Origin: a virus
Taxonomy: Duplodnaviria > Heunggongvirae > Uroviricota > Caudoviricetes
Strand: one strand, 5' to 3'
Virus record (IMG/VR): IMGVR_UViG_3300029080_000078
Length of the DNA: 15,570 bases
Made by a program: the position numbers and the translations under genes. The notes below the pieces were generated by a model. The model was not told the origin of the DNA. It saw only the letters and a list, made by a program, of their open reading frames with translations, and ran no database searches. Below are positions 1 through 15,570 of the stretch, in pieces. The stretch's first letter is position 1. Each line of letters starts with the position of its first letter.

Positions 1-1284
1 TTACAGACTTCTGGAAGGTTGCGCAGCTCTTACAACACGCGGTTGATCTTCCGCAGCGTCTTCCAGCGCACTTAAATCACGGTCTTTCACCTCTGGCATT
101 TTCAGCGCAGAGATTAAACCAATTACTGAATATGCCATGATCATAATGGCGATCGGATACCAGGATTCCGTCATGGTGCAGAAAATACCCGCCAGGATAG
201 GACCAAAACCGGAAGCGATAAGACCACCAATTTCTTTAGAAATAGCCATCCGGGTAAAGCGGTTTTTACAGCCGAACATTTCTGCCATGGTAATGTTTTC
301 CAGAGCAAATAATCCCAGCACCGCACAGTTATGAATCACAATCAGTGCAACCATAATGGTGCTCGGGGCATAGCTTTTATCTACAATGATAGAAAGCATT
401 GGCCATGCCAGCACAATCGCGGAGGTATTCATAATAATATACGGGATCCGGCGACCAATTTTATCGGATAACCAACCAAGGAACGGAATGGTCATAAAGC
501 CGAGAATCGAACTAATCATCAATGCATCTGTTGGAATTGCTTTGTTAAACAATAACGTCTGCACTAAATAGCCTGCAAGGAAAGTCTGAATTAACCCGGA
601 GTTACCCGCCTGACCAAAACGCAGCCCTGTTGCCAGCCAGAAGGATTTGCTCTGGAACATGCTACCAGCAGGTGCAGGTTTTGCTGTGGGTTGGTTGCTG
701 TCATTAACCTTCTCAAAGACCGGGCTTTCTTTCAGATTCATACGTAACCAGATAGCAAAGACCATCACGACAACGCTCGCCAGGAACGGTATACGCCATC
801 CCCACGCCAGCAGTTCCTCTTTACTGAGAATGAAGAACATAAAGGCCCAGATTGCCGTTGCGCTCAAGGTTCCGCAGTTAGTTCCCATAGCTACAAATGA
901 GGAGATAATTCCGCGCTTACCTTTTGGTGCATATTCCGCCAGCATCGTACCGGCACCGGAAATTTCCGCACCTGCACCCAACCCCTGAATAATACGCAGC
1001 GTCACCAGCAAGATGGGGGCAAAAACACCAATCTGTGCATAGGTCGGTAACACACCAATTAAGGTGGTACAGATCCCCATCATGGTGATGGTAATAAAGA
1101 GCACTTTTTTACGCCCTATTCTGTCGCCCATTTTGCCGAAAATAAATGCTCCGACAATACGCGCCACATAACCTGCACCGTAGGTTCCCATTGCCAAAAT
1201 TAACGCCATTGCCGTTGATGATTCAGGAAAAAATATTTCATGAAACACTAACGCTGCGCCGAGCGAATATAACTGGAAATCCAT
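1..1284 (-). CDS. ydfJ: MFS-family metabolite:H+ symporter, apparently N-terminally truncated at the prophage boundary
   Basis: 427-aa ORF with multiple hydrophobic helices and the MFS loop motif G-x-x-x-D-R-x-G-R-K after the first complete helix (GKMGDRIGRKK). Only part of a first helix precedes it, and a stop lies directly upstream of the ATG at 1282-1284, so the N-terminus looks cut. Name from recall of K-12 YdfJ (427 aa). Confidence 0.85.
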   Translation of the reverse strand: MDFQLYSLGAALVFHEIFFPESSTAMALILAMGTYGAGYVARIVGAFIFGKMGDRIGRKKVLFITITMMGICTTLIGVLPTYAQIGVFAPILLVTLRIIQGLGAGAEISGAGTMLAEYAPKGKRGIISSFVAMGTNCGTLSATAIWAFMFFILSKEELLAWGWRIPFLASVVVMVFAIWLRMNLKESPVFEKVNDSNQPTAKPAPAGSMFQSKSFWLATGLRFGQAGNSGLIQTFLAGYLVQTLLFNKAIPTDALMISSILGFMTIPFLGWLSDKIGRRIPYIIMNTSAIVLAWPMLSIIVDKSYAPSTIMVALIVIHNCAVLGLFALENITMAEMFGCKNRFTRMAISKEIGGLIASGFGPILAGIFCTMTESWYPIAIMIMAYSVIGLISALKMPEVKDRDLSALEDAAEDQPRVVRAAQPSRSL

Positions 1285-1885
1285 AATTCACAGGTGTTTT
1301 TTCCCATCCTGTGGTTTCCTTGGCGTTTTCTAGGTTTTTTCAGATAGTTGCATTTTTTAAAAAGCATCCTAAGTTCGATCTCAGTGTCTATCTGGGGCCT
1401 ATTTCTGTCCCATATATGCCCCAAAAAGACTCCCAACAGATAAGTAGTTTTTCATGGATTTACGCGTAAAATCAATAACGGCTGGAAATCATTCAATACT
1501 CGCACTATCGAAAAATTTACCAGCCAACCGCAGCACGTTCTTGCATAAGGCGTGTCTGCGGTTTTTCAACTATTCAGATACATCACTCCCATCACATTCA
1601 TTCCTCCGCATCAAAGGCATATAGGCTATATCACCTTGATATTTTTCTTCTTCAGATAAAAATTGTTATCTATGTATACTTTTAAACCCAATCCGTGTAG
1701 AGTCTCTGCATAAGATAGTTTGCAGTTGCCGCTTCAGCTTGCGCCATAAACCGCCTGATTTTTGCTGCCACCTGTTAGCATTCCTGTATACCTGAAACGA
1801 CAATGTTTATCTACGAACTTTAAGAACACCCAAGATAAAAATTGTCAACTATATCATATATAACACATTACTAATTCGAGGCTAT

Positions 1886-1999
1886 ATGAACAGCATACTG
1901 ATAATCACTTCTCTCCTTATCATATTCAGCATTTTTAGTCATGCCCTAATAAAATTAGGGATTGGCATATCCAATAACCCAGACAAAACCGATGTATAA
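1886..1999 (+). CDS. candidate small hydrophobic ORF (37 aa, [37 protein letters not shown])
   Basis: ATG at 1886 preceded by a GAGG Shine-Dalgarno-like motif; strongly hydrophobic N-terminal 20 residues. AT-rich context makes a chance ORF plausible; no homology known to me. Confidence 0.2.
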
Positions 2000-2067
2000 G
2001 CCAACATATCCTGAATCAGACATACAATATCGCAATGAAAATCAATAATATTTTAAGGAATATCTTC

Positions 2068-2301
2068 ATGAAATCAAAAGACACCCTAAAGTGGTTCCCT
2101 GCGCAGCTTCCTGAAGTAAGAATTATCCTAGGGGATGCTGTAGTGGAAGTAGCAAAACAGGGAAGACCTATCAATACCAGAACATTGCTTGATTACATTG
2201 AAGGAAACATAAAGAAAAAATCATGGCTGGATAACAAAGAATTATTACAAACAGCGATATCAGTTCTTAAAGACAACCAAAATTTAAATGGTAAAATGTA
2301 A
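2068..2301 (+). CDS. ydfK: small prophage protein of the YdfK/YnaE family (77 aa), reported as cold-shock inducible
   Basis: ATG at 2068 with AAGGAA 7 nt upstream; 77 codons, matching the recalled length of K-12 YdfK; sits next to the pin invertase as ynaE does next to pinR in Rac. Confidence 0.8.
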   Translation: MKSKDTLKWFPAQLPEVRIILGDAVVEVAKQGRPINTRTLLDYIEGNIKKKSWLDNKELLQTAISVLKDNQNLNGKM

Positions 2302-2617
2302 TATAATAAACTTACTTTTTTATCATTTTTCCACTTTAACAACATTTTGCTCCACTTTTCCACGACCAAACAACTTGAAATCTGGTTAAAATAACACGCA
2401 ACACTATTCTTCTTCCTTGAGTCCGCCCGGAACTCGAAAAACAAACCGAGTTAAAGCCATTTTTCACAAAATCGATTTTGGGTCTCACCAAAATTACGGG
2501 GTTGCATACGCATTCGTTTATTTTCGAACGTGTACATACAAATATGCACAAAAATAATCAAAATTATTTTCTGAGATGCATTATGATATGAACACCAATT
2601 TCGTATAGAGTCTCACT

Positions 2618-3208
2618 ATGTCTCGAATTTTTGCTTACTGTCGGATATCAACGCTGGATCAGACCACCGAAAATCAACGCCGGGAAATCGAAAGTGCAGG
2701 TTTTAAAATCAAACCTCAGCAAATAATCGAAGAACACATTAGCGGCTCAGCAGCAACCAGTGAGCGTCCTGGTTTTAACCGGTTGCTTGCTCGCCTGAAA
2801 TGTGGTGATCAATTGATTGTGACAAAACTGGATCGCCTTGGTTGTAATGCAATGGATATCAGGAAAACAGTGGAACAACTGACCGAAACAGGTATCAGAG
2901 TGCATTGCTTAGCATTGGGGGGCATTGACCTGACCAGTCCAACAGGAAAAATGATGATGCAAGTAATTTCAGCAGTCGCTGAATTTGAACGAGACCTTTT
3001 ACTTGAACGCACTCATTCCGGGATAGTAAGAGCCCGCGGCGCAGGGAAACGTTTTGGTCGACCACCTGTGTTAAATGAAGAACAGAAACAGGTGGTATTC
3101 GAACGAATTAAGTCAGGTGTAAGTATAAGTGCCATTGCCCGGGAATTCAAAACCTCGCGGCAAACCATTTTAAGAGCCAAAGCAAAACTTCAGACACCTG
3201 ACATATAA
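2618..3208 (+). CDS. pinQ: serine recombinase, Hin/Gin/Cin/Pin-family DNA invertase
   Basis: 196 aa; N-terminal catalytic motif YCRISTLDQ (active-site Ser), resolvase core domain, C-terminal helix-turn-helix ([21 protein letters not shown]). Adjacent to tail-fibre genes as expected for this family. Confidence 0.92.
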
Positions 3209-3305
3209 AAAATAATCTCGGTGTGAGATGCTTTACGTCTTCCAAGCCCCCTTCCTTGCCGTAAATGGAAAGATACATCTAATTATAGAATTTATATGTT
3301 TTACC

Positions 3306-3881
3306 CTACGGCAGTGCTGGCCATTCAATATCCTGTGCAGTTGACGTATCAACACGGTTCAGCAATACCCGATACTTTTTCCATGCTTCCAGCAACGAGA
3401 TTTCTTCCTCCGTTGCAATTTCCAGATCTGCAGCATCCTGAAGCGGCGCAATATGCTCACTGGCTACCTGCATCAGGTTGTTTTTTGTTTCTTCCGCCTC
3501 CCGGATCCGGAACAGTTTTTCTGCTTCCGTATCCTTCACCCAGGCTGTGCCGTTCCACTTCTGAAACTCCCCTTCCGGGGATAACCAGGTGACATTTTCC
3601 GGTAATGGGCCAAGTTCAGAAATAAATAACGCGTCGCCGGAAGCCACGTCATAGACGGTTTTACCCCGATGATCTTCAACGAGATGCCACGATGCCTCAT
3701 CACTGTTGAAAACAGCCACGAAGCCAGCCGGAATATCTGGCGGTGCAATATAGGAACTGTTTGCTGGCAGACCTGTATGAGGCGGAATATATGCGTCACC
3801 TTCACCAATAAATTCATTAGTTCCGGCCAGCAGATTATAAATTTTTATGGTCCGTGGTTGTTCACTCATTCTGAATGCCAT
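3306..3881 (-). CDS. tfaQ: tail fibre assembly protein (Tfa)
   Basis: 191-aa ORF immediately downstream of the side-tail-fibre ORF; its ATG overlaps the stf stop (TAATG); length matches recalled TfaQ. Confidence 0.85.
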
Positions 3882-4735
3882 TATGCAAGCCTCACAATGT
3901 AGTTAAATGCGATGTTTTTGACGGTGTTTTCCGCGTTACCAGCAGCGTTAACGGTGATGGTGTGTCCATGTGAGCCAATCGCAACAGAGTGCGTATGAGC
4001 ACCAATACCGACAGTATGTGCGTGAGCACCTGCAGATGCAGCTGTGCCGCTGACACTATGAGTGTGCGCTCCTGCAGCACTTGTATTCACACTGGCCGCA
4101 GACACTACCTTATGTACTGACCCATTTTGTGACCACTGGCTGATTGCTGATGCGCCTGTGACACTATGAGTATGGTTTCCGGCACTTGCGGCTGTACCGC
4201 TCACACTGTGCGTATGCGCCCCGGTGTTATTCGTGGATTTAGTGCCGTAATCAAACGACGATGTGGTTTTCGTCCCCAAATCCGTACTGGATGCGCTGGC
4301 GCTGTGGGTGTGCGATTTAATGCCGTCCTGTTCCTGAGACAATACGGCCCGACCACTGGCAGGTTTGCCCTTAATCGTCCAGCCACGCATATCAGGGATC
4401 ACGCCTGACGGATAAGCGGCTGCAAGTTTCGGGTAAGCAGATTTGTCAAAAGTCTGCCCCTGCATCAGGGCATAACCAGACGGAACGGTATCTGATGGCC
4501 ACGGGATTGGTGCACCGACTGGATAAAACTCTGCAGGAGGATGAGCCGAGGTGTAAAGCTGCGCCCACGGCGACCAGTTTGCGTCGGTCGTATCCCGTCG
4601 TGAACGAATAAATGCCGGAGCATGAGCACCGCTTGTACCACTCCAGCCGATGAGTAACTCACCTTCGCCAACGGCTGTCATCCCTTTCAGGTGAATGATA
4701 TTTCCATACGCTGTTGGATATCCGTTGTTATACAC
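3881..4735 (-). CDS. stfQ: side tail fibre protein, C-terminal fragment (N-terminus deleted)
   Basis: 284-aa ORF rich in G/S/T/A with repeated [15 protein letters not shown] motifs typical of phage fibre C-terminal domains; upstream reading frame closed at 4736, where it abuts an unrelated protease fragment. Confidence 0.75.
3950..4320 (-). repeat. tandem His-rich repeats (HTHS / [14 protein letters not shown]) inside the stfQ coding region
   Basis: Peptide motif HTHS occurs at least five times; the nucleotide sequence shows direct repeats such as gacactatgagt and gctgt(g/a)ccgct. Confidence 0.55.
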
Positions 4736-4785
4736 CTCGTATAACTCAAGACCTGCTGCCCCCTGCGTATTGTCTGTCAGCGCGG

Positions 4786-5547
4786 CTAACGCCCGCCAAA
4801 CATGGCAAACAGATCATTAATACCGTTTGCACGCGCTTTTTGCTCTGCCAGTACCTGCGCACGGATACTGTTTTCATCCACCACGGGTGCTGCTGCCTGC
4901 ACTGGCGTCCGGGAGGCTGCAGGTTCATCATCCTGTACGCGTGGAGCACTGTTGCGTGGCGGAGTAATCATGTTTCGAATGGATTCCGGCATCTTTTTAA
5001 ATTCCTCTGTACGTTTTGACTGAATACATGCCATTGCCTTAACGGCTGGTGTCACCTGATCAGCAAATCCCTGTGCCAGACATTCGGCACCGGACATCCA
5101 GGTCTCATCCGCCAGCATGGCAGCAATTTCATCGGTGGTTTTCCCGGTTTTCTGTGCATAAGCGGGTAACAGAACCGCCTCAACTTTATCGAGCAGGTCG
5201 GCATAGGTGCGCATGTCCTCCGCATCACCGCCCGTAAATCCAAATGGTTTATGAATCATCATGAAGGAGTTTTCCGGCATAATGACCGGGTTTCCCACCA
5301 TCGCAATGACCGACGCCATTGACGCCGCCACACCGTCGACATAAACGGTAATGGACGCACCATGTGTTTTCAGTGCATTAAAAATGGCGATGCCTTCAAA
5401 GACATCGCCACCCGGTGAATTAATATGGAGATTAATGTGGGTGATAGCTGGCCGGATCAATTCGCTGGCTCTCCCCGTCGCAGTCACTGCGCAATGACTG
5501 CGTGATGTTGTAACGATCAATAATCCAGCGTTCGCCACGACTGCCAT
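4786..5547 (-). pseudogene. prohead protease fragment (ClpP/S49-like serine peptidase), lacking native start and C-terminal part
   Basis: Translation contains the protease core (RPAITHINLHINSPGGDVFEGIAIFNALK ... ASMASVIAMVG). The 5' end of the ORF overlaps the terminase fragment in another frame, and the ORF ends just before the stf fragment. Confidence 0.65.
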
Positions 5548-6832
5548 AGCCCGTTACCTGAACCACAAAACGGCGATGACGTCCCGCCTGCACATCCACT
5601 GTCGCCACAAGGAAATTAATGCCATCCGGCACACTGCGGGAAGGAACTGGCTCTGCCCGCTGCTCAAGCAGTTCACTTTTTCGTTGCTCCATGCTGGCAC
5701 GAGGAAGATAAGGCAATCCCCAGTCGGTGTTGATAACCGCCCTGAGTGTTTCTTCGCTTCCTGTCGCTTCATACTCCTGTTCTGCAGTCAGTAATTTGTA
5801 AACCAGTTGCGCCCAGGTCTGATACGCAGCAGCTGGCCCTTCCATCCAGAAACTGGCGATACGGGAGCGGCGCGGTTCACCGGAAACGTTGCCGTTACGA
5901 TCAATGACCTGACCTTCACGCAACCAGACTCCAGCACTATTGAGCTCACGCTTTTTCTCCGCAGTGATAATGCCGCTGCAGTGCGGGCAAAGTAGATACG
6001 CCGCCTCACTGGCTTTAAAGGGATCCGGTTCATTACGGTAGCCGGTCATGGCATCCATGGCTGGCTGAAAATATTCACCGCAGTGCGGACATGACCAGTA
6101 CCAGCGGCGGCGGTCACCACGATTGTAAAGGGAAAGAATACCAGTCGTCGGTGGCGCTTCATGAGGCGACTTACGTCGCCATTTGCTGTCGCAGATGTCA
6201 CGTCCCGGCGAGCTCTCCACCAGAGTCATCCCGGCGGACATAAATGTGGTGGTACGTTTTGAGGCCAGGGAGAAACCATCACCCTCGCTGTCGATATTCT
6301 CCGGAAAACGGTCGTAATCGGTTAAGGCGACAAACCGGTAATCCGACGACGACATAATGTTGACCGAGGGCCAACCAATTTTAAGGAACGAGCCATCCCT
6401 GAACGTCTTATCATGGACATTATTGTCGTTACGACGTGGACTCATTCTTTTCTTTACCGCCGCACTGCTTCTGAACGTTCTGTCGAGGCGCTTTTTAGAA
6501 TGCTCGCGGGCCTTATCTTCGGTCATCTGCACAACGAGCATGTCCGAAGGATCGCAAACGATGGTATAGACAATCCATCCATCGATCAGACCAATGGTCT
6601 TCCCTGTTCGCGCAGGACCAACAAAAATCACCGCATCGTATTCACGCGATGCCAGGCAGTTCATGGGCTCAATGATGTAGGGTGTCAGTTCAGGATCCCA
6701 TGGCACCGAGTTACCAGCCCCCTTGGGAACACGCATGAATTTTTTAACAGCCTCCGAAATCGGCATGCGACGTGGTGGGGAAAATCCTGCCGATATGTCC
6801 CTTCCCAAATTTCGGGCTGATGAAAAACCCAT
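5432..6832 (-). pseudogene. terminase large subunit (GpA-like), N-terminal ATPase portion only
   Basis: ATG at 6832 with AGGAGG 4-5 nt upstream, overlapping the stop of the small-subunit gene; Walker A motif GPARTGKT; Cys motifs CPHCGEYF and CPHCSG resembling lambda gpA; length 466 aa versus about 640 aa for intact GpA, so the nuclease domain is missing. Confidence 0.7.
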
Positions 6833-6840
6833 TATTCCTC

Positions 6841-7368
6841 CTAGAGACTCTCTCCTTCCTCATCAGGAATTAATTCAGCAGCACAAGCCTCGTAGGATTT
6901 TTCCTGAAGAGTGTATCGCAGGTCATCAATTGCCTGCTGTACAACGCCGACGGCCTGAGGAGTCAGGGCGCAATCGCGTTCAAGAACATCCGGAATTGTC
7001 TCCAGAACCTGGACGACAGCCTTTCTCATGGACGAATAGACGATGACTACTTCATCAACGGGGATGAGTTTTCGCTGCTCCTTTTCCAGCTTGATCCTTT
7101 CATTTTCAGACTGGTACCAGTCCTTTCTCTCTTTCGGCTCCATACGGGATGGATCATGAACAGAGTCTGCTGCCTCATGCTTCACACTAAACAGGGCTGG
7201 CCCGACATGCTGCAGGGCGTAAACGGGGTTCCCCCTGACAGTCGCAGCCACAGGAGTGTTGGCCGCGAGAAGCCGTTTTTTTACTGTGTCCCGGTGAAGC
7301 CCAAAGGCCTCAGCGATTTTAAAAACACTCCAGTAATAAGCATCACCGATCCCGCTCACATTTGACAT
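6841..7368 (-). CDS. nohQ: terminase small subunit, Nu1-like DNA packaging protein
   Basis: ORF directly upstream of and coupled to the large-subunit fragment. ATG at 7368 (MSNVSGIGDAYYW...) has GGAG 6 nt upstream; in-frame ATGs at 7380 and 7398 lack a Shine-Dalgarno. Placed downstream of a cos-like site as in lambda. Confidence 0.8.
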   Translation of the reverse strand: MSNVSGIGDAYYWSVFKIAEAFGLHRDTVKKRLLAANTPVAATVRGNPVYALQHVGPALFSVKHEAADSVHDPSRMEPKERKDWYQSENERIKLEKEQRKLIPVDEVVIVYSSMRKAVVQVLETIPDVLERDCALTPQAVGVVQQAIDDLRYTLQEKSYEACAAELIPDEEGESL

Positions 7369-7547
7369 AAGCAACTCCATCTGGCAGGTGAAAATCATGT
7401 TTATTTATATATTTCAATTAATTGTAAACTGGTCTAATGACAGGGAGAAAAAAATATTGTACAGGTAAAAAGAGAAATAACTTTTAATTATCAATAAATT
7501 ACCAAACATGCTGCCGCCGCCATGGAAATGCAAAAACTAGCCTTTTT

Positions 7548-7564
7548 CCGCGACGCTCCCGCCC
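7548..7564 (-). other. cos-like site (putative cosN region) upstream of the terminase genes
   Basis: Minus-strand sequence GGGCGGGAGCGTCGCGG lies about 185 bp upstream of the Nu1-like start and resembles the lambda left cohesive-end region (GGGCGGCGACCTCGCGGG, from memory). Locally GC-rich island in an AT-rich intergenic region. Confidence 0.35.
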
Positions 7565-7744
7565 CGTGGCAGGGGCCCCCACCGGGAGGACCCGACAGCC
7601 TGACAGCCGTGACGAGCATCTGATACAGCGCTTTACATAATGGCATAGGAATAATTCAGAAGGACATCACAGCATGCCCACACAAATTAGTGTGAGTGTC
7701 CTGTTTCTTCCTACGCACAGGACTGACGAGCATGAGGGGAAAAT

Positions 7745-7912
7745 ATGCGAACCATAAATGCCTCATCTTCAGCAATGCAGCCGGCATCCGAACAGGACGA
7801 TATTGTAAATTCACCTAATTACGAGGACATTGCAGTAGTTGAATTGCAGCTCTGTATTAGCCTGACAGTGACAGAATGCGATATTGACTCTGTCACAGGT
7901 GAAATAGTTTGA
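7745..7912 (+). CDS. candidate small acidic protein (55 aa, MRTINASSSAMQPASEQDDIVNSPNYEDIAVVELQLCISLTVTECDIDSVTGEIV)
   Basis: ATG at 7745 with GAGGGG 5 nt upstream; the frame is closed by a stop 10 nt before the ATG; below the ORF-track length cutoff. Confidence 0.3.
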   Translation: MRTINASSSAMQPASEQDDIVNSPNYEDIAVVELQLCISLTVTECDIDSVTGEIV

Positions 7913-7932
7913 ATGATTAGCAGTTATGGTGC

Positions 7933-8139
7933 TCAGTCAACCACCAGGGAATAATCCTTCGAATTCTTATCGTGCTTCACCAACGCTGCCTCAATTGCCC
8001 TGAATGCTTCCAGAGACACCTGATGTTCTATACATGCAATTACAACATCCGGGTAACTCATAGAAATGGTGCTATTAAGCATATTTTTTACACGAATCAG
8101 ATCCAACGAGAGTTCATCAGCAGATTGTTCTTTATTCAT
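7933..8139 (-). CDS. small hypothetical prophage protein (68 aa)
   Basis: ATG at 8139 with GGAG 7 nt upstream; convergent with the 55-aa ORF. May correspond to K-12 ynfO, but I cannot confirm this. Confidence 0.5.
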
Positions 8140-8439
8140 TTTGTCGCTCCATGCGTTTGCTCGTCATCTAGCGGTTAAAATATTACTTCAAATCTTACTG
8201 CATAAAAGAGGAAAAGTATGAAAGTTTGAGTACATCGACCTTACATACATCTGTCGGTTGCATATCCCTCCTGGATGCCAGCAAGGCTCAATTTTGTTAC
8301 GCAATCAACACTATTCATTAAAAACAGGCTTAATATTTGACATAAATCATCAACAAAACACAAAGAGGTCAGACCAGATTGAAACAATAAACACGATAAT
8401 GAAAACTACGCGCCATCGTATCACATGGAAGGTTTACCA

Positions 8440-8850
8440 ATGGCTCAGGCTGCCATTTTTAAAGAAATATTCGATCAAGTGCGTAAAAATTTAAACTGTG
8501 AATTATTTTATTCTGAGCTAAAACGTCACAATATCTCACTTTATATTTACTATTTAGCCACAGATAATATTCACATTGTGTTAGAAAACGACAACATAGT
8601 GTTAGTAAAAGGACTCAAAAAGGTTGTAAATGTTATATTCTCCAGAAACAAACATCTTATAGAGACCTCCTATAATAAGTTGAAATCAAACGAAATCACA
8701 TTTCAACAATACAGGGAAAATCTTGCTAAAGCAGGAGTTTTCCGATGGGTTACAAATATCCAGGAACACCAAAGATATTACTATGCCTTTGATAACTCAT
8801 TACTATTTACTGAAAGCATCCAGAAAACTACACAGATCTTACCACGCTAA
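8440..8850 (+). CDS. ydfO: DUF1398-family prophage protein
   Basis: ATG at 8440 ([11 protein letters not shown]...) with GGAAGG 7 nt upstream; 136 codons, matching the recalled YdfO length. Confidence 0.8.
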
Positions 8851-8944
8851 ACCATAACGTCCGGCTTCTCTCACTCCTGAGCCGGACTGCATTGGTTTAA
8901 TAAAAACCATCAACAATTGTGATTTAGATATTCGGAACCATTCA

Positions 8945-8975
8945 AATATAACAAAACCCCGTAAAAACGAGGTTT
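8945..8975 (-). terminator. putative intrinsic terminator downstream of gnsB
   Basis: Imperfect 8-bp stem (aaaccccg / cgaggttt, one mismatch) with a 6-nt loop, followed on the minus strand by a U-rich tract (UGUUAUAUUU); 27-50 nt past the gnsB stop. Confidence 0.35.
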
Positions 8976-9001
8976 ATGGATAAATTTTATTATTGAATAC
9001 A

Positions 9002-9175
9002 TCAGATTAAATTAACCTTGACATCATAGCTTTCAAGACCCGTCATTTTTTCCCGTGCGGTAAACTGAATACTGGTAACTTCTTTCCCGGTCTTTTTCTT
9101 AAGTTCAATAATTTTTTTTGTTATATATTCAGAAATATCTGCTTCTGCTTTTGTTTTTAAGTTTTCAATATTCAT
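9002..9175 (-). CDS. gnsB: GnsA/GnsB-family small protein (57 aa)
   Basis: Translation MNIENLKTKAEADISEYITKKIIELKKKTGKEVTSIQFTAREKMTGLESYDVKVNLI, recognisable as the Gns family (conserved FTAREKMTGLESYDVK). Not in the ORF track because it is under 60 aa. Confidence 0.9.
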   Translation of the reverse strand: MNIENLKTKAEADISEYITKKIIELKKKTGKEVTSIQFTAREKMTGLESYDVKVNLI

Positions 9176-9346
9176 CATTTCCTCTTTTAGTCTGTTATGA
9201 CTTTCCAGTTACACAGTAAGTCGATTATATGGTGCAAACGTGTAAAAGATAAGATGAAACATCGCAATAATCAACATACGATAGTCTAAATTTTACACAA
9301 ACAGACAAAGAGAATTTTCCTGAATTATCAATACAATAGCATCAAA

Positions 9347-9502
9347 TCAACTCAAGAGCCTTATTGCTGCTTCCAGAATTTCTTCTGAAGTAACATGTCG
9401 ATCCGCGGCTACATAAATGACTTTATGATCTCCGGTCAGAGATGGAAACCCTGCGGCCATTACAGTAAGGTGTGTTTTTTCGCCATTTGGATATTCACGC
9501 AT
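9347..9502 (-). CDS. ynfN: small prophage protein YnfN (51 aa as recalled; reading frame stays open to an upstream ATG at 9577, giving 76 aa)
   Basis: A 51-aa ORF from MREYPNGEK... matches the recalled annotation length; the same frame continues upstream to MKKIIVFFNSEPAVVVPAMTGVNTI. Neither start has a strong Shine-Dalgarno. Confidence 0.65.
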   Translation of the reverse strand: MREYPNGEKTHLTVMAAGFPSLTGDHKVIYVAADRHVTSEEILEAAIRLLS

Positions 9503-9620
9503 GATGGTGTTAACTCCAGTCATCGCTGGCACTACCACTGCTGGTTCAGAGTTAAAAAAAACTATGATTTTTTTCATGATGTTACCGTAGTATGTGAGTA
9601 TCCATCGAATAGATACCAAG

Positions 9621-9642
9621 CAAAAAAGCTCCCGAAGGAGCC
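9621..9642 (-). terminator. intrinsic terminator (minus strand), about 210 nt downstream of cspI
   Basis: Stem GCTCC / GGAGC with loop CGAA, followed immediately on the minus strand by UUUUUU (plus-strand A run at 9622-9627). Confidence 0.5.
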
Positions 9643-9848
9643 TTCATTTTCACTTTTTTAAATCCAACGACAGACGGCTGGCATTTAAGTATTGTGAAAT
9701 ATTATCAAATGTAATCATCATTGATTTACAAAAGATACATTTTGCCCCGAAAGGATTCATGTCAGAAACATCAAAAGATGATGTTCTATACTGGGAACCA
9801 TGACAACACGGGCATCTAAAGTGAATATGGTTTGTAATATTGTCTACC

Positions 9849-10061
9849 TCAAAGCGCCACTACATGAACAGCGGCAGGACCTTTAGGTCCGTTCTCAATA
9901 CCAAATTCAACTTCCTGATTCTCAGTTAATGTTTTGAAATCGTTGCTCTGAATTGCTGAGAAATGGACAAACACATCTTTGCTGCCATCTTTCGGCGTGA
10001 TGAAACCAAAACCTTTTTCAGGGTTAAACCATTTCACTAAACCAGTCATTTTGTTAGACAT
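9849..10061 (-). CDS. cspI: cold-shock protein, CspA family
   Basis: 70 aa, [21 protein letters not shown]... with RNP1/RNP2-like motifs (KGFGFI, VFVHF). Confidence 0.95.
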
Positions 10062-10424
10062 AATTATTACCTTTTGAAGAAATTAGCCCTTGGGCAGAAT
10101 GGTCCGAAAAAAAATATCAGAGAGAAAAACCAACAAGGAAATCTCAAGAGGTACAAATAATAAAATTATAACAATGACTGCTTCAGATAAATTTGTAACA
10201 AACCAGAACACCATTAACGCATGATTAACCACCCATAGCAAGGATTACTTTTGTAAAGAAAAACACAGCAATGAAAGAATAGCTTTATTTATTAATAATA
10301 ACGTGTCATTCTGATTAAGACCTTTTATCTTACCCTTAAGATTTCAGGAATTTTGGCTCATGGAAGAGTCCTTTTTATTTAAATTTTACATTCCGCGATG
10401 TAAATGTTCCGATTTAATATTACC

Positions 10425-11448
<1,024 letters not shown>

Positions 11449-11452
<4 letters not shown>

Positions 11453-11736
11453 ATATATTTATGATGAGGACGCTCGTGCTTATTGGCAGGATTTTCAATC
11501 TTAAAGGAGTACTGATGCTGCAGATAAGACTCAACTTTTTCTGACAATTTTTCTGCTACTTCCAGGAAGACTTGCCGGACGCTCCTTCTGGCTGCTGCCT
11601 CATAAAACTCCAGCGCAGCTCCTTCAACACGGTCCATGGCGACATCCAGGTCAAAAATTTCACCGTCAAAGCGTTCTTTGTCCTGTAAGGCTACAGTTAC
11701 CGTAACTTTATTCTCAAAATTACGGACTCCTTTCAC
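11449..11736 (-). CDS. ydfR: hypothetical protein sitting between holin and endolysin (DUF1327-like as recalled)
   Basis: 95-codon ORF with an apparent GTG start; its stop overlaps the rrrQ start (ATGA), suggesting translational coupling. Start codon uncertain. Confidence 0.7.
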
Positions 11737-11764
11737 AACCAGTTCATAGTCTTGAGTCGTTGGA

Positions 11765-11980
11765 TTACTCTCCTCTCGCAGCCTTACGCCTGTCTTCTTT
11801 AATCTTGAAATAAAGATTTGTCAGATACGTCAGCAGGCCAAAAACCAGGCTACCCAGCACACCGATTGCAGCCCACTGTGACGGAGTTACTTTATCGAGT
11901 AACTGCAATGCCCAGAAACCAGCATTACCCGCCGATGTGCCATAGGCAACACCTGTTGTTAACTTATCCATTGATTTCAT
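11765..11980 (-). CDS. essQ: class II holin, phage-21 S (pinholin)-like, with dual-start motif
   Basis: 71 aa, [71 protein letters not shown]: two transmembrane segments, a Met1-Lys-Ser-Met4 dual start and a charged C-terminus; closely resembles the S21 pinholin as I recall it. Confidence 0.9.
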
Positions 11981-12199
11981 ATCCTCACCCCGATGTACAC
12001 GGATGGTGCAATATGTTTGAAAAGATCGGAGTCTACGGGGTAGTTTTGACAGCACACGCTGTTCTCAACGGCGCTAAAGAAACATACACATTAAAAATGT
12101 GAGTAATTATTTTGAAAGAAAGTCATATATAAAATAATAATACGAGAAATGTTTTCATATTTAGTGTACTGTATACGGCCATTTATACAGGAAAAGCCT

Positions 12200-12370
12200 A
12201 TGTCAGAACGTAAAGACTCAAAATCACGCCGTAATTATCTCGTTAAATGTTCCTGCCCAAACTGCACCCAAGAGTCAGAACACAGTTTTTCAAGAGTACA
12301 AAAAGGTGCCCTTTTGATCTGCCCTCATTGCAACAAAGTATTCCAGACAAATCTTAAAGCTGTAGCCTGA
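12200..12370 (+). CDS. candidate small zinc-ribbon protein (56 aa, C-x-C-x2-C ... C-x2-C)
   Basis: ATG at 12200 with AGGA 7 nt upstream; MSERKDSKSRRNYLVKCSCPNCTQESEHSFSRVQKGALLICPHCNKVFQTNLKAVA has four or five Cys in a ribbon-like arrangement. May correspond to a small protein found in K-12 by ribosome profiling (uncertain recall). Confidence 0.5.
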   Translation: MSERKDSKSRRNYLVKCSCPNCTQESEHSFSRVQKGALLICPHCNKVFQTNLKAVA

Positions 12371-12424
12371 TTGATTTTATTAGTAACAAGTATTTTTTAT
12401 ATTTTAATAATATATTTAAAGCAG

Positions 12425-12452
12425 ATAATAAAAAACCCGCCTGAGCGGGTTT
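12425..12452 (-). terminator. intrinsic terminator (minus strand), about 280 nt downstream of cspB
   Basis: 8-bp stem aaacccgc / gcgggttt with loop ctga, followed on the minus strand by UUUUUUAUUA; nearly the same stem sequence as the hairpin at 13755-13778. Confidence 0.55.
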
Positions 12453-12733
12453 GAGATTGTGGTGCTTTTTGTGGGAGTCATCCACTTACGCACTTTGTTT
12501 TGCCATGCCAGCAGTTAGCTTCTGCTGTAAAACTATTCATGCAGCAAACCTGCACTTCACCACAATGGTTAGCATACTTTTCCTGATTAAGATTTTGCCA
12601 AATATGCTGGCCATTGTTTCATGTATTGGACCTCCTTAATTTTTATTAAAGAAATCCAATATTCACTACTCTGTCCGTATCTCTACTCAGGCATCAGCCT
12701 TCTTCGTTATCGTATACAGACGAGCGATGAATT

Positions 12734-12949
12734 TTAATCAGTAATGATGACATTTGCTGCTGCAGGACCTTTAGCACCACTCTCTATAGAGAAGGTAACC
12801 TTTTGACCTTCAAATAAGGTTCGATAATTATCATTCTGAATCGCAGAAAAATGCACAAACACATCTTTACTACCATCAACAGGAGAAATAAAGCCGAAAC
12901 CTTTATCAGCGTTAAACCATTTTACTAAACCAGTCATTTTATTTGACAT
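12734..12949 (-). CDS. cspB: cold-shock protein, CspA family
   Basis: 71 aa, [38 protein letters not shown]... Confidence 0.95.
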
Positions 12950-13249
12950 TCTACATTCCTTAACTTGAGCCTTTCGGCATAAATGGTTTGCATAACAGAA
13001 ACGACTTCGTACTTAATTGGAGAGACTCAAAGAAGGAATAAGTGAATAACACCTGAAATGAGAACTGCTTTAGTAAACTACTTCGTATATCGTCTGTTCT
13101 TCAAACCGACGCAATCATTAACGCATAGTTGAACATATGAAGCAATGTTTATTTTAGACATCCAGCCATCTTCAACCCCATCAAAAAACTATAGCTTTCT
13201 TCAGGAACGTGTGTATAGTGCGCCAAGTTATCAGTATTAAGGAATTTTT

Positions 13250-13462
13250 TTGTCCCGTAAAATGACAGGAATTGTCAAAACCTTTGACGGCAAAAGCGGC
13301 AAGGGTCTTATCACCCCATCCGATGGTCGTATCGATGTCCAGCTTCATGTTTCAGCGCTCAATCTCCGCGATGCAGAAGAAATTACCACCGGATTACGCG
13401 TGGAATTTTGCCGGATAAATGGTCTGCGTGGCCCTTCAGCTGCCAATGTTTACCTTTCATGA
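13250..13462 (+). CDS. cspF: CspA-family protein, divergent member
   Basis: 70 aa from a TTG start at 13250 ([13 protein letters not shown]...); AAGGAA 6 nt upstream; cold-shock-domain fold with a degenerate RNP1 motif. Confidence 0.9.
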
Positions 13463-13516
13463 GCTATATTAAAGCTTTAATTTCAGGCCCCATCGGATCA
13501 CACATGGAGAGTTTTT

Positions 13517-13606
13517 ATGAATAACCCCGTCTGTCTTGATGACTGGTTGATTGGCTTTAAAAGCTTATGCTGTACTTTGGCCGTAATAGCTCTGCTAATA
13601 ATATAA
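13517..13606 (+). CDS. candidate small ORF (29 aa, [29 protein letters not shown])
   Basis: ATG at 13517 with GGAG 7 nt upstream; hydrophobic C-terminal half; lies in the long 3' region of cspF ahead of the terminator hairpin. Could be chance. Confidence 0.2.
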
Positions 13607-13754
13607 TAAGCAGACTCATTGTGTTTAGGGACATTGTACTGGAAGAAAACATTTTAAACATCAGGCAAATAACCAAGTCACCAGCTAAATAATAAGTTAA
13701 CAGACATGAGTCCCGGGATGAGATTCAACATTACCATTGCCCCATTTAAAGCAC

Positions 13755-13790
13755 AAAACCCGCTCATCAGCGGGTTTTCTACTTTTTCTT
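13755..13790. terminator. strong hairpin, likely a bidirectional intrinsic terminator between cspF and quuQ
   Basis: Perfect 10-bp stem aaaacccgct / agcgggtttt with loop catc (13755-13778); followed on + by CUACUUUUUCUU and on - by GUGCUUUAAAU. Confidence 0.55.
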
Positions 13791-13823
13791 AACGTCGGGT
13801 ATACAAAGCCCATCGTTGAAAAA

Positions 13824-13852
13824 ATTTTATCCATATTTTTTGAAAAATGCAA
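13824..13852 (-). promoter_or_regulatory. candidate sigma-70 promoter immediately downstream of quuQ (pR'-like position)
   Basis: Minus strand: -35 TTGCAT (13852-13847), 17-bp spacer, -10 TAAAAT (13829-13824). It sits between the Q stop and the hairpin at 13755-13778, where a lambdoid late promoter and Q-utilisation site would be expected. Confidence 0.3.
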
Positions 13853-13883
13853 ACATCATGTCGCCATCTTCAGCAAAAATCAT

Positions 13884-14636
13884 TTATCTCGTCACCTTCC
13901 TCAATTGTGCTTCCGCGTATGCTTCTTCCTGCCAGCACTTTGTTACCAGTTTACCAATGACGTCCGCATACCCCTTATACCACTGATAATCGGTCAGGTC
14001 TGGTACCAGCTTCTGGACATGACGTCGTGCCAGCGTGGTCGGTAAACGACTAAACCGGTTTCCATTACAACGCCCACAAATCTTATATACCGGTACGCCA
14101 TGAAACCGGGTTCTTTTTTCATCCAGAACAATCCCTTTACCCTTACACCCTCTGCACGCTGTGCTGGCTTCGCCCTTACCATGGCAATGCTGACATAGTT
14201 CCTTCACCCATTCTTCCTTGATTACAGATTCCCCGCGTCTGTAGTGTTTCACCACTTCGCGCAATACATTATAAAATCCCGTACCTGAACAATGCTCACA
14301 GCGAGCTTTACTTGCCGCAGACCTGGAGTAATCAGCAAAGGCAAAACTCACGAGGTAAGGAATAATCTGTAACCGGATTTCTTCACTCAATTTGTTCAAT
14401 GTCGGGTTATCCAGTGCCATCGCGTAATTTAGCAGGCCTTCAATCGCAAACTGAGGGTCCTGAACACCAACTTTTGCCAGAAATAAGGCCAACCCAAGTG
14501 GTGCTTTCGACTGCACCATCCCCTGCGCTGCCATTACATCCGTAATTGTTAAACAACCGGTGCCTGTCGCTGGAGCGTCATCGCTCAATTTTGGAGATTT
14601 TGGGGAGTAATATTTTGGTAAGGCTTCAAGGTTCAT
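13884..14636 (-). CDS. quuQ: Q-family late-gene antiterminator
   Basis: 250 aa from the ATG at 14636 (GGAG 7 nt upstream); Cys/His-rich zinc-binding region (CEHCSGTG ... CQHCHGKG ... CRGCKGKG ... CGRCNG) typical of Q antiterminators; positioned upstream of the lysis genes. Confidence 0.9.
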   Translation of the reverse strand: MNLEALPKYYSPKSPKLSDDAPATGTGCLTITDVMAAQGMVQSKAPLGLALFLAKVGVQDPQFAIEGLLNYAMALDNPTLNKLSEEIRLQIIPYLVSFAFADYSRSAASKARCEHCSGTGFYNVLREVVKHYRRGESVIKEEWVKELCQHCHGKGEASTACRGCKGKGIVLDEKRTRFHGVPVYKICGRCNGNRFSRLPTTLARRHVQKLVPDLTDYQWYKGYADVIGKLVTKCWQEEAYAEAQLRKVTR

Positions 14637-15570
14637 GCTCGTTCTCCACTTACGCCAGTACGCCAATTGCCAGCGCGCGATCGATAAAACGAAATATCAG
14701 CTCCAGTTGGGAGCCATACTTCTCTTCAAATGCCACTGTAAACCCGGTATACCCCGCCCTGCCCTCGATTCCTGGGATGCTGAATATATGCAGGAAAACC
14801 GCTGGGATGAGGCGTCTGCTTCCTTTGTCCCGGTCGAGACTGAATCCGATCCGATGAACGTCACTTTTGACAACCTAGCCCCTGAAGTACAGAACGCTGT
14901 CATGGTTAAGTTCCACACATGTGAAAACATCACTGTTGATATGGTGATTAGCGCACAGGAATTGTTGCAGGAAGACATGGCAACATTCGACGGCCATATC
15001 GTTGAAGCGTTGATGAAAATGCCAGAAGTTAACGCTATGTATCCGGAGCTTAAGCTGCATGCCATCGGGTGGGTTAAGCATAAATGTAAGCCTGGTGCCA
15101 AATGGCCCGAAATTCAGGCAGAGATGCGCATCTGGAAAAAACGTCGCGAAGGTGAACGCAAGGAAGCCGGAAAATACACGTCTGTTGTTGATCTCGCCCG
15201 CGCCAGAACCAATCAACAGCACACTGAAAATTCAACAGGAAAAATCAACCCGGTCATTGCTGCCATTCATCGCGAATACAAGCAGACATGGAAAATACTG
15301 GATGACGAACTGGCCTACGCTCTCTGGCCTGGTGATGTGGATGCCGGAAACATTGACGGCAGCATCCATCGCTGGGCAAAAAATGAAGTTATCGACAACG
15401 ACCGCGAAGACTGGAAGCGTATCTCGGCATCAATGCGCAAACAGCCTGATGCCCTTCGCTACGACCGCCAGACTATTTTTGGCCTTGTCCGTGAACGTCC
15501 GATCGACATTCACAAAGACCCTGTGGCACTGAACAAATACATTACTGAATACCTGACTACAAAGGGCGTG
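14635..15570 (+). CDS. ydfU: long ORF of unknown function, divergent from quuQ, 3' end beyond the window (partial)
   Basis: Plus frame 1 is open from 14611 to the window end (at least 312 codons from the ATG at 14635, 261 from the ATG at 14788) and codon usage is E. coli-like from about 14788 onward. All three minus frames have stops here. Missing from the ORF track only because it has no in-window stop. The gene symbol is by synteny with K-12 Qin only (gene next to quuQ), not by sequence recognition. Confidence 0.6.
   Translation, partial: MLVLHLRQYANCQRAIDKTKYQLQLGAILLFKCHCKPGIPRPALDSWDAEYMQENRWDEASASFVPVETESDPMNVTFDNLAPEVQNAVMVKFHTCENITVDMVISAQELLQEDMATFDGHIVEALMKMPEVNAMYPELKLHAIGWVKHKCKPGAKWPEIQAEMRIWKKRREGERKEAGKYTSVVDLARARTNQQHTENSTGKINPVIAAIHREYKQTWKILDDELAYALWPGDVDAGNIDGSIHRWAKNEVIDNDREDWKRISASMRKQPDALRYDRQTIFGLVRERPIDIHKDPVALNKYITEYLTTKGV

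What the first reader, a model, noticed from the sequence alone, without database searches (positions are those of the whole stretch)
14611..15570. Large divergent ORF whose start codon overlaps the Q-antiterminator start, absent from the ORF track
A + strand frame is open for more than 300 codons up to the window edge. Its first ATG (14635-14637) and the quuQ ATG on the opposite strand (14634-14636) share a single CATG tetranucleotide, so the two genes would start back to back with no intergenic promoter space. Codon usage looks truly coding from the ATG at 14788 onward; the first roughly 50 codons contain rare codons (ata, ccc, cta) and may be non-coding overlap. In lambdoid phages the nin-region genes directly upstream of Q are normally co-directional with Q, so a long gene in the opposite orientation is atypical and suggests a moron or mosaic junction. 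I could not assign a family or catalytic motif by eye.
Basis: partly seen in the sequence, partly recalled or inferred. Interest (0 to 1): 0.55.

Follow-up and report, generated by a model that had tools for sequence, protein, structure and literature searches.

The report
Truncated prophage exonuclease gene at deletion scar
The long "divergent ORF" next to the Q antiterminator is the beheaded remnant of a well-known prophage exonuclease gene, brought next to Q when a 7-10 kb deletion removed the middle of a decaying Qin-like prophage of E. coli; it is ordinary prophage decay, not a new gene.

Summary
The + frame is open from 14611 to the window end (320 codons), and ATG 14635-14637 shares a CATG with the quuQ start. 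The interpretation needs correcting. From 14740 on, the ORF is codons 64-340 of the 823-aa "exonuclease" of Qin/mEp460-type lambdoid prophages (277/277 residues and 832/832 nt identical to E. coli APEC O78). K-12 ydfE is the same gene. A deletion with a 2-nt TA microhomology (14739-14740) removed most of ydfU, the replication and immunity region, dicB, ydfD, and the exonuclease's promoters, ribosome-binding site and first 63 codons. It is 9,871 bp relative to APEC O78 and 6,920 bp relative to K-12. The 35 codons from ATG 14635 are the antisense of the ydfU tail, where the same ATG already opens a 121-codon shadow ORF in undeleted genomes. The two genes are divergent because they sit on the two divergent early arms of the intact phage. 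The ORF was missing from the ORF track because it runs off the window. The window is identical to an ENA metagenome contig that ends 44 nt further on. The most likely status is a promoterless pseudogene remnant. Interest is low.

The parts
13884..14636 (-). quuQ (ydfT), the Q-family antiterminator, 250 aa, intact
   Evidence: The ORF is. Pfam Antiterm matches at 3.6e-54. The exact protein is very widespread, and ydfU lies upstream of it in 10 of 10 contexts. It is 99.8% identical at DNA level to K-12.
14637..14649 (-). Native 13-nt spacer between the ydfU stop and the quuQ ATG
   Evidence: K-12 and APEC O78 show the same spacing in their annotation.
14650..14740 (-). Remnant of ydfU (DUF968): the last 29 codons plus the stop. 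The rest of the 349-codon gene is deleted.
   Evidence: 29/29 residues are identical to YdfU 321-349. BLASTN of window 5443-14740 matches L003 8863-18160.
14739..14740 (.). Deletion junction with the TA dinucleotide shared by both parental flanks
   Evidence: Comparison of the parental flanks is. The two BLAST segments overlap at 14739-14740.
14611..14739 (+). Non-native open leader of the ORF, including ATG 14635. It is the antisense of the quuQ start, the spacer and the ydfU tail.
   Evidence: The same ATG opens a 121-codon antisense ORF in undeleted K-12 and APEC O78. The chance of 43 stop-free codons is about 0.13. The Shine-Dalgarno-like pairing is only 2 nt from the ATG.
14740..15570 (+). 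Codons 64-340 of the 823-aa Qin/mEp460-type prophage exonuclease (K-12 ydfE homologue). It is 5'-truncated and runs off the window.
   Evidence: 277/277 aa are identical to WP_000048464.1. 832/832 nt are identical. phrog_2082 matches at 4.9e-216 over positions 58-340 of 823. It is 95.9% identical at DNA level to K-12 ydfE.
14788..14790 (+). ATG of native Met80, the start chosen by the gene caller on the source contig
   Evidence: The L015 gene 3..827 is 275 aa and partial. There is a weak GGGA about 9 nt upstream, at -4.0 kcal/mol, against -6.9 for the native start.
13755..13778 (.). G+C-rich palindromic hairpin with T runs on both sides, between cspF/ynfS and the 3' end of quuQ. It would stop + strand read-through before it reaches the ORF.
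   Evidence: It appears in the terminator-like scan.

Best explanation
The ORF is a 5'-truncated remnant of the early-left-operon exonuclease gene of a Qin-like cryptic prophage. This gene is the homologue of K-12 ydfE, and related genomes encode an 823-aa protein with a C-terminal DEDDh 3'-5' exonuclease domain. In the intact phage, the exonuclease (operon dicB-ydfD-exo-xis-int) and Q (operon ...rem-ydfU-Q) lie on the two divergent early arms either side of the immunity region. One illegitimate-recombination deletion, with its crossover in a TA dinucleotide at 14739-14740, removed everything between ydfU codon 320 and exonuclease codon 63. That deletion placed the two genes back to back. The frame stays open upstream of the junction only because the antisense of the ydfU tail happens to be stop-free in that register. 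ATG 14635 is therefore an accidental start, not a real one. The deletion removed the gene's promoters (the DicA-repressed dicB operon promoters), its ribosome-binding site and its first 63 codons. I infer that it is now a silent or at most weakly expressed pseudogene remnant. quuQ is likewise cut off from its upstream promoter. Shown: the identity of the gene, the junction, the deleted content and the loss of native signals. Inferred: the lack of expression and function.
For: Breakpoints against APEC O78: window 1-5446, 5443-14740 and 14739-15570 match L003 869-6315, 8863-18160 and 28032-28863 at 99.9-100%. The flanks show a TA microhomology. The protein is 277/277 identical to exonuclease residues 64-340 and is in frame. 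The ydfU tail is 29/29 identical. APEC O78 annotation shows that the deleted interval holds ydfU, hokD, replication genes, IS2, the repressor region, ydfABC, dicB and ydfD. Functional phage mEp460 has Q<-rusA<-DUF968 ... cro|cI->dicB->ydfD-like->exonuclease->xis->int. According to PMC11430063, a promoter upstream of dicB transcribes dicB, ydfD and ydfE and is repressed by DicA. Only one 9/12 promoter-like + site lies upstream, within the number expected by chance, and a hairpin terminator lies at 13755-13778. Candidate starts have weak or badly spaced Shine-Dalgarno pairing compared with the native starts. An independent deletion of the same kind exists in five complete genomes, where a 105-nt DUF968 remnant abuts dicB. 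The same contig carries a second microhomology deletion (GATA, 2,547 bp) in the packaging and head genes, which shows ongoing decay. G+C does not shift across the junction.
Against: The remnant has no frameshift or stop in the 277 native codons seen. With only about 0.05% divergence from APEC O78, this says nothing either way. Gene callers do predict a product from Met80. The exact 744-aa Met80-823 protein is deposited from 22 contigs as 'exonuclease', so a truncated product is not excluded. The 3' part of the gene, which holds the catalytic domain, lies beyond the contig end and was not seen. Expression was not measured.
Confidence: 0.88

Rival explanations
1. The gene is a functional, N-terminally shortened exonuclease translated from native Met80 (ATG 14788). 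It has been freed from DicA repression and is driven by a fortuitous promoter inside antisense quuQ or at the junction. This would be loosely comparable to sbcA mutations that switch on recE in the Rac prophage.
For: Prodigal on the source contig starts the gene at 14788. The exact Met80-823 744-aa protein is on 22 contigs and is named exonuclease. [quoted passage not shown]
Against: No convincing promoter was found. There is one 9/12 site at 14248-14277, where 6 sites were found against 4.2 +/- 2.0 expected. A terminator hairpin blocks read-through from cspF. Shine-Dalgarno pairing is weak at -4.0 kcal/mol. A gene-caller start is a prediction, not evidence of expression. The 3' end of the gene was not seen.
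Confidence: 0.1
2. The gene encodes a chimeric 795-aa protein that starts at ATG 14635, with its start codon overlapping the quuQ start.
For: The frame is open, and AAGG lies just upstream with pairing of -5.8 kcal/mol.
Against: The 35 leading codons are the antisense of the ydfU tail, and the same ATG heads a 121-codon shadow ORF in undeleted genomes. The Shine-Dalgarno spacing is only about 2 nt. The exact 795-aa fusion is absent from the 15-billion-protein collection. No promoter was found.
Confidence: 0.02
3. The junction is an assembly artefact of a metagenome contig and does not exist in any cell.
For: The window is identical to a MEGAHIT-style metagenome contig, ERZ27239369 k119_22534. 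The junction 32-mer is absent from 5,426 complete E. coli genomes, the GTDB representatives, JGI metagenomes and IMG/VR.
Against: By inference from how such assemblers work, a de Bruijn assembler at k=119 cannot join two sequences that share only 2 nt unless reads span the joint. A second contig carries the companion deletion. Both junctions show the microhomology typical of real deletions. Similar independent deletions exist in finished genomes. Met80-start exonuclease calls exist in isolate assemblies, which is only suggestive.
Confidence: 0.05
4. The gene is a moron or a horizontally inserted foreign gene placed upstream of Q.
For: Only the atypical orientation supports this.
Against: The gene is a standard early gene of related functional phages, at its usual place before xis-int. 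The arrangement arose by loss of DNA, not insertion. There is no G+C shift, and the gene has no promoter or terminator of its own.
Confidence: 0.01

Closest known systems
823-aa 'exonuclease' / '3'-5' exonuclease' of Qin-like prophages and phages mEp460, Tritos and HannyBb (WP_000048464.1; phrog_2082)
   Same: The gene is the same. Residues 64-340 are 100% identical to the APEC O78 protein and 98.9% identical to phage mEp460.
   Different: The first 63 codons, the ribosome-binding site and the upstream operon (dicB, ydfD and their promoters) are missing here. The C-terminal DEDDh domain lies outside the window and contig.
E. coli K-12 ydfE pseudogene (b1577, Qin prophage)
   Same: It is orthologous, at 95.9% DNA identity over window 14739-15317. 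Both are decayed copies of the same exonuclease gene.
   Different: K-12 ydfE keeps its 5' end and the dicB-ydfD context but is cut at its 3' side by IS2E. The window copy is cut at its 5' side by a deletion.
RecE (exodeoxyribonuclease VIII, Rac prophage) and sbcA activation
   Same: The central region of the full-length relative matches the RecE model positions 273-603. It occupies the same place in the early left operon. Rearrangements in a cryptic prophage can change its expression (PMC9504249).
   Different: The scores are far below the RecE cut-off: 271 bits for the full-length relative and 44 bits for the window ORF, against 1269. The nuclease domain is Rv2179c-like DEDDh rather than the RecE nuclease domain. 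No activating promoter is evident here.
Deletion variant in E. coli 2017-03-3CC and four other complete genomes (Q - DUF968 remnant - dicB - ydfD - exonuclease)
   Same: This is an independent loss of the region between the DUF968 tail and the left operon. It leaves a DUF968 3' stub of about 100 nt next to Q.
   Different: The deletion there ends upstream of dicB, so the exonuclease gene stays complete with its operon. The Q gene is also of another type (378 nt).

Membership tests
Qin/mEp460-type prophage exonuclease (phrog_2082; K-12 ydfE orthologue) | Sequence match along the N-terminal region | tested here: met
   277/277 aa are identical to residues 64-340. phrog_2082 matches at E=4.9e-216.
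Qin/mEp460-type prophage exonuclease (phrog_2082; K-12 ydfE orthologue) | Native start codon, ribosome-binding site and residues 1-63 | tested here: not met
   They are deleted. The match to L003 begins 188 nt into the CDS.
Qin/mEp460-type prophage exonuclease (phrog_2082; K-12 ydfE orthologue) | C-terminal DEDDh (Rv2179c-like, PF16473) exonuclease domain | not testable with these tools
   The domain lies at residues 642-813 of the full-length protein. The window ends at codon 340 and the source contig at about codon 355.
Qin/mEp460-type prophage exonuclease (phrog_2082; K-12 ydfE orthologue) | Position in the dicB-ydfD-exo-xis-int operon | tested here: not met
   dicB, ydfD and their promoters are absent upstream. 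The downstream side was not seen.
RecE / exodeoxyribonuclease VIII (NCBIfam NF007259) | Score above the curated cut-off over the whole model, including the C-terminal RecE nuclease domain | tested here: not met
   The window ORF scores 44 bits and the full-length relative 271 bits, against a cut-off of 1269. Only model positions 273-603 are matched. Pfam finds Rv2179c-like instead.
Phage moron | An inserted extra gene with its own promoter and terminator between conserved phage genes, often with deviant composition | tested here: not met
   The arrangement arose by deletion. The gene is a regular early gene of related phages. No promoter or terminator was found, and G+C stays at 0.47-0.51 across the junction.
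YdfU / DUF968 (minus strand, 14650-14740) | DUF968 domain over about 349 aa | tested here: not met
   Only the last 29 codons remain.
Lambdoid Q antiterminator (quuQ) | Antiterm domain (PF03589), full length | tested here: met
   PF03589 matches at 3.6e-54 over the 250-aa protein. The exact sequence is shared with many E. coli.

The most novel reading that the evidence does not exclude
The deletion may have uncoupled the exonuclease from DicA repression. A Met80-start protein that retains the DEDDh domain would then be made constitutively from a fortuitous promoter. That would be a domesticated, N-terminally trimmed prophage 3'-5' exonuclease, comparable in spirit to sbcA activation of RecE. 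It could be present in a small clade, since 22 contigs carry the exact 744-aa product.
Probability: 0.08. Interest if true: 0.3.

Novelty: already known. Interest (0 to 1): 0.08.

Why it matters
It matters little beyond annotation. It shows that a long ORF with no visible family next to Q can simply be a beheaded known gene at a prophage deletion scar, and that the apparent start-codon overlap is accidental. It also documents one more route of Qin-prophage decay. That route loses the immunity and replication region and the toxic genes hokD, dicB and ydfD, while the cold-shock genes, the lysis cassette and Q are kept. This fits the general picture of prophage domestication by deletion.

Tried and rejected
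- **Structure prediction:** a single-sequence AlphaFold2 model of residues 64-340 gave mean pLDDT 39.4 and pTM 0.24. That is too poor to use, so no fold search was run.
- **Homologue alignment:** I ran no further search on building an alignment, because the identity of the ORF was already settled at 100% identity.
- **Exact junction search:** the junction 32-mer gave 0 hits in GTDB representative genomes, JGI metagenomes and IMG/VR.
- **Complete genomes:** none of the 5,426 complete E. coli genomes covers the junction.
- **Contigs of the 744-aa product:** Whether those 22 contigs share this junction is therefore unknown.
- **Literature:** a first search with 'ydfE, Qin, exonuclease' was swamped by the surname Qin.
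- **Pfam:** the window ORF matches nothing, because the only Pfam domain of the family lies beyond the window.
- **Rfam and tRNA scans:** they found nothing in 13111-15570.
- **Minus strand:** a continuous minus-strand gene across the interval is excluded. The minus frames hold 5-17 stops, and the longest open stretch is 138 codons, antisense to the exonuclease.
- **Junction promoter:** TTCAAA-17-TATACC (14725-14753) spans the junction but matches only 8 of 12 positions and lacks the final T of the -10 hexamer, so I did not count it.

Full report
**1. The observation**

The + strand frame that begins after TAA 14608-14610 is open to the last base of the window, which is 320 codons. Over the same stretch the other five frames hold 5-28 stops. 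At 3 stops per 64 codons, 320 open codons have a chance of about 2e-7. The minus-strand ORF 13884-14636 is QuuQ/YdfT: 250 aa, Pfam Antiterm 3.6e-54, and an exact sequence found in very many E. coli assemblies. The ORF was absent from the ORF track because ORFs that run off an end of the source are not listed (tool description).

**2. What the ORF is**

Megablast against 5,426 complete E. coli genomes found no record that covers the region around the quuQ start contiguously. Window 14739-15570 is 100% identical to the interior of a gene annotated 'exonuclease' or '3'-5' exonuclease'. Against E. coli APEC O78 (NC_020163.1, locus L003) the window breaks into three collinear blocks:

| Window | L003 | Identity |
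|---|---|---|
| 1-5446 | 869-6315 | 99.9% |
| 5443-14740 | 8863-18160 | 99.96% |
| 14739-15570 | 28032-28863 | 100% |

ORF residues from codon 14740 on equal exonuclease residues 64-340, 277/277 identical. On the minus strand, 14650-14739 encodes the last 29 residues of YdfU (DUF968) plus the stop, 29/29 identical.

The two parental flanks share only TA at the crossover:

- Left parent: ...GCCACTGTA|TCCGT...
- Right parent: ...GCGAGGATA|AACCCGG...
- Window: ...GCCACTGTAAACCCGG...

This is an illegitimate-recombination deletion of 9,871 bp relative to APEC O78, or 6,920 bp relative to K-12 MG1655. In K-12 the window's right-hand block matches the ydfE pseudogene at 95.9%.

**3. What was lost, and why the genes are divergent**

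The APEC O78 interval that is missing holds ydfU, a small hypothetical gene, hokD, DUF5677 and DUF977 genes, an IS2, replication and YdaT genes, the repressor/cro region, ydfA-B-C, dicB and ydfD. In K-12 the equivalent interval holds ydfU, rem, hokD, relBE, ydfV, flxA, ydfWX, dicC, dicA, ydfABC, dicF, dicB and ydfD.

In the functional lambdoid phage mEp460 (98.9% protein identity over the window part) the order is Q <- rusA <- DUF968 <- rem ... cro-like | repressor -> dicB -> ydfD-like -> exonuclease -> xis -> int. Q and the exonuclease therefore belong to the two divergent early arms. Deleting what lies between them leaves them back to back.

This explains the atypical orientation without any insertion. 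G+C is flat across the joint at 0.47-0.51. In all 10 sampled contexts of the identical QuuQ, ydfU lies co-directionally upstream.

**4. The leader and the 'shared start'**

The 35 codons from ATG 14635 to 14739 are the antisense of the 13-nt spacer and the ydfU tail. In undeleted APEC O78 and K-12 the very same ATG opens a 121-codon antisense shadow ORF inside ydfU. The CATG and the open register therefore pre-date the deletion and are incidental. The chance of 43 stop-free codons is about 0.13.

The pairing energies with the anti-Shine-Dalgarno sequence are as follows:

| Start | Energy (kcal/mol) | Spacing |
|---|---|---|
| ATG 14635 | -5.8 | about 2 nt, too short |
| ATG 14788 (native Met80) | -4.0 | about 9 nt |
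| Native exonuclease start | -6.9 | normal |
| quuQ start | -6.4 | normal |

The exact 795-aa fusion product is not in the 15-billion-protein collection.

**5. Expression signals**

In K-12 a promoter upstream of dicB transcribes dicB, ydfD and ydfE and is repressed by DicA (PMC11430063). All of this region is deleted here.

Upstream on the + strand lies antisense quuQ. The consensus scan finds a single 9/12 promoter-like site there (14248-14277). The total number of sites is at chance level: 6 found against 4.2 +/- 2.0 expected. A strong palindromic hairpin with T runs (13755-13778) lies between cspF/ynfS and the quuQ 3' end, and would stop read-through from cspF.

No minus-strand promoter-like site lies upstream of quuQ within the window either, so quuQ has also lost its feeding promoter. 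I therefore infer a promoterless remnant. This is an inference from sequence, not a measurement.

**6. Provenance**

The first deletion, 2,547 bp with GATA microhomology, removes part of the head protease, the portal and the C-terminal part of the terminase. It creates a 466-aa fusion ORF at window 5432-6832 on the minus strand.

An exact look-up of that protein found two contigs. The one shown, ENA metagenome assembly ERZ27239369 contig k119_22534 (61,970 bp), is 100% identical to the whole window (L015 45-15614) and ends only 44 nt beyond it. The ORF is still open at the contig end, and those 44 nt continue the native sequence to about residue 355. The stop cannot be reached.

The gene caller on that contig starts the partial gene at ATG 14788. 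The junction 32-mer is absent from GTDB representative genomes, JGI metagenomes and IMG/VR.

A k=119 de Bruijn assembly cannot create a joint on 2 nt of homology without spanning reads. That is an inference from how such assemblers work, and it makes an artefact unlikely. The exact Met80-823 744-aa protein is deposited from 22 contigs, including NCBI isolate assemblies (EEV7660578.1 and others). This hints that the same or a similar 5' truncation exists in isolates.

**7. Comparison with known families**

The full-length relative has a Rv2179c-like DEDDh 3'-5' exonuclease domain at residues 642-813 (PF16473, 1e-66). Its central region resembles RecE model positions 273-603, at 271 bits against the RecE cut-off of 1269. 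It is therefore RecE-related in its non-catalytic part, but it is not a RecE equivalog.

The window part (residues 64-340) has no Pfam domain. PDB sequence matches of the full-length protein fall only in the DEDDh domain (8kel and 8ken). A single-sequence AlphaFold model of the window part was unusable at pLDDT 39.4.

Independent deletions of the same region occur in finished genomes. One example is strain 2017-03-3CC, where a 105-nt DUF968 stub abuts dicB. sbcA mutations that activate the recET pathway in the Rac prophage (PMC9504249) are the nearest precedent for the only mildly interesting alternative, in which the truncated gene has become expressed.

**8. Verdict**

The finding is a real ORF with an ordinary explanation: a beheaded copy of a known prophage exonuclease gene at a deletion scar in a decaying Qin-like prophage.

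- The moron idea, the 'unknown family' and the overlapping genuine start codons are not supported.
- Novelty: already known.
- Interest: about 0.08.

Noticed in passing
window 5443-5446 (junction); ORF 5432-6832 minus strand: A second microhomology deletion (GATA, 2,547 bp relative to APEC O78) removes part of the ClpP-like head protease, the portal gene and the 3' part of the large terminase gene. It leaves a 466-aa terminase-fusion ORF. Only two public contigs carry this exact protein, and that is how the source contig was identified.
   Followed up: partly
window 13824-13853 (minus strand) and 13755-13778: A promoter-like site, TTTGCA-18-TAAAAT, lies directly downstream of the quuQ stop and is followed about 40 nt later by a strong hairpin terminator. 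The layout resembles the PR'-qut-tR' late-promoter unit on which lambdoid Q proteins act.
   Followed up: no
window 12718-13110 and 9822-10207 (minus strand): Two Rfam cspA thermoregulator matches (158.8 and 112.8 bits) lie upstream of the prophage cold-shock genes cspB and cspI.
   Followed up: no
window 3340-3538 (minus strand): An Rfam IS009 RNA match (220.9 bits) lies inside the tail-fibre assembly gene tfaQ, next to the pinQ invertase.
   Followed up: no
window 1-1284 (minus strand): The window starts exactly at the stop codon of ydfJ, the host transporter gene that the Qin prophage insertion truncates (annotated as missing its N-terminus in APEC O78).
   Followed up: no
L003 18055 and L014 1741 (undeleted APEC O78 and K-12): A 121-codon antisense shadow ORF inside ydfU starts at the same CATG as quuQ in undeleted genomes. 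It is presumably non-coding.
   Followed up: partly
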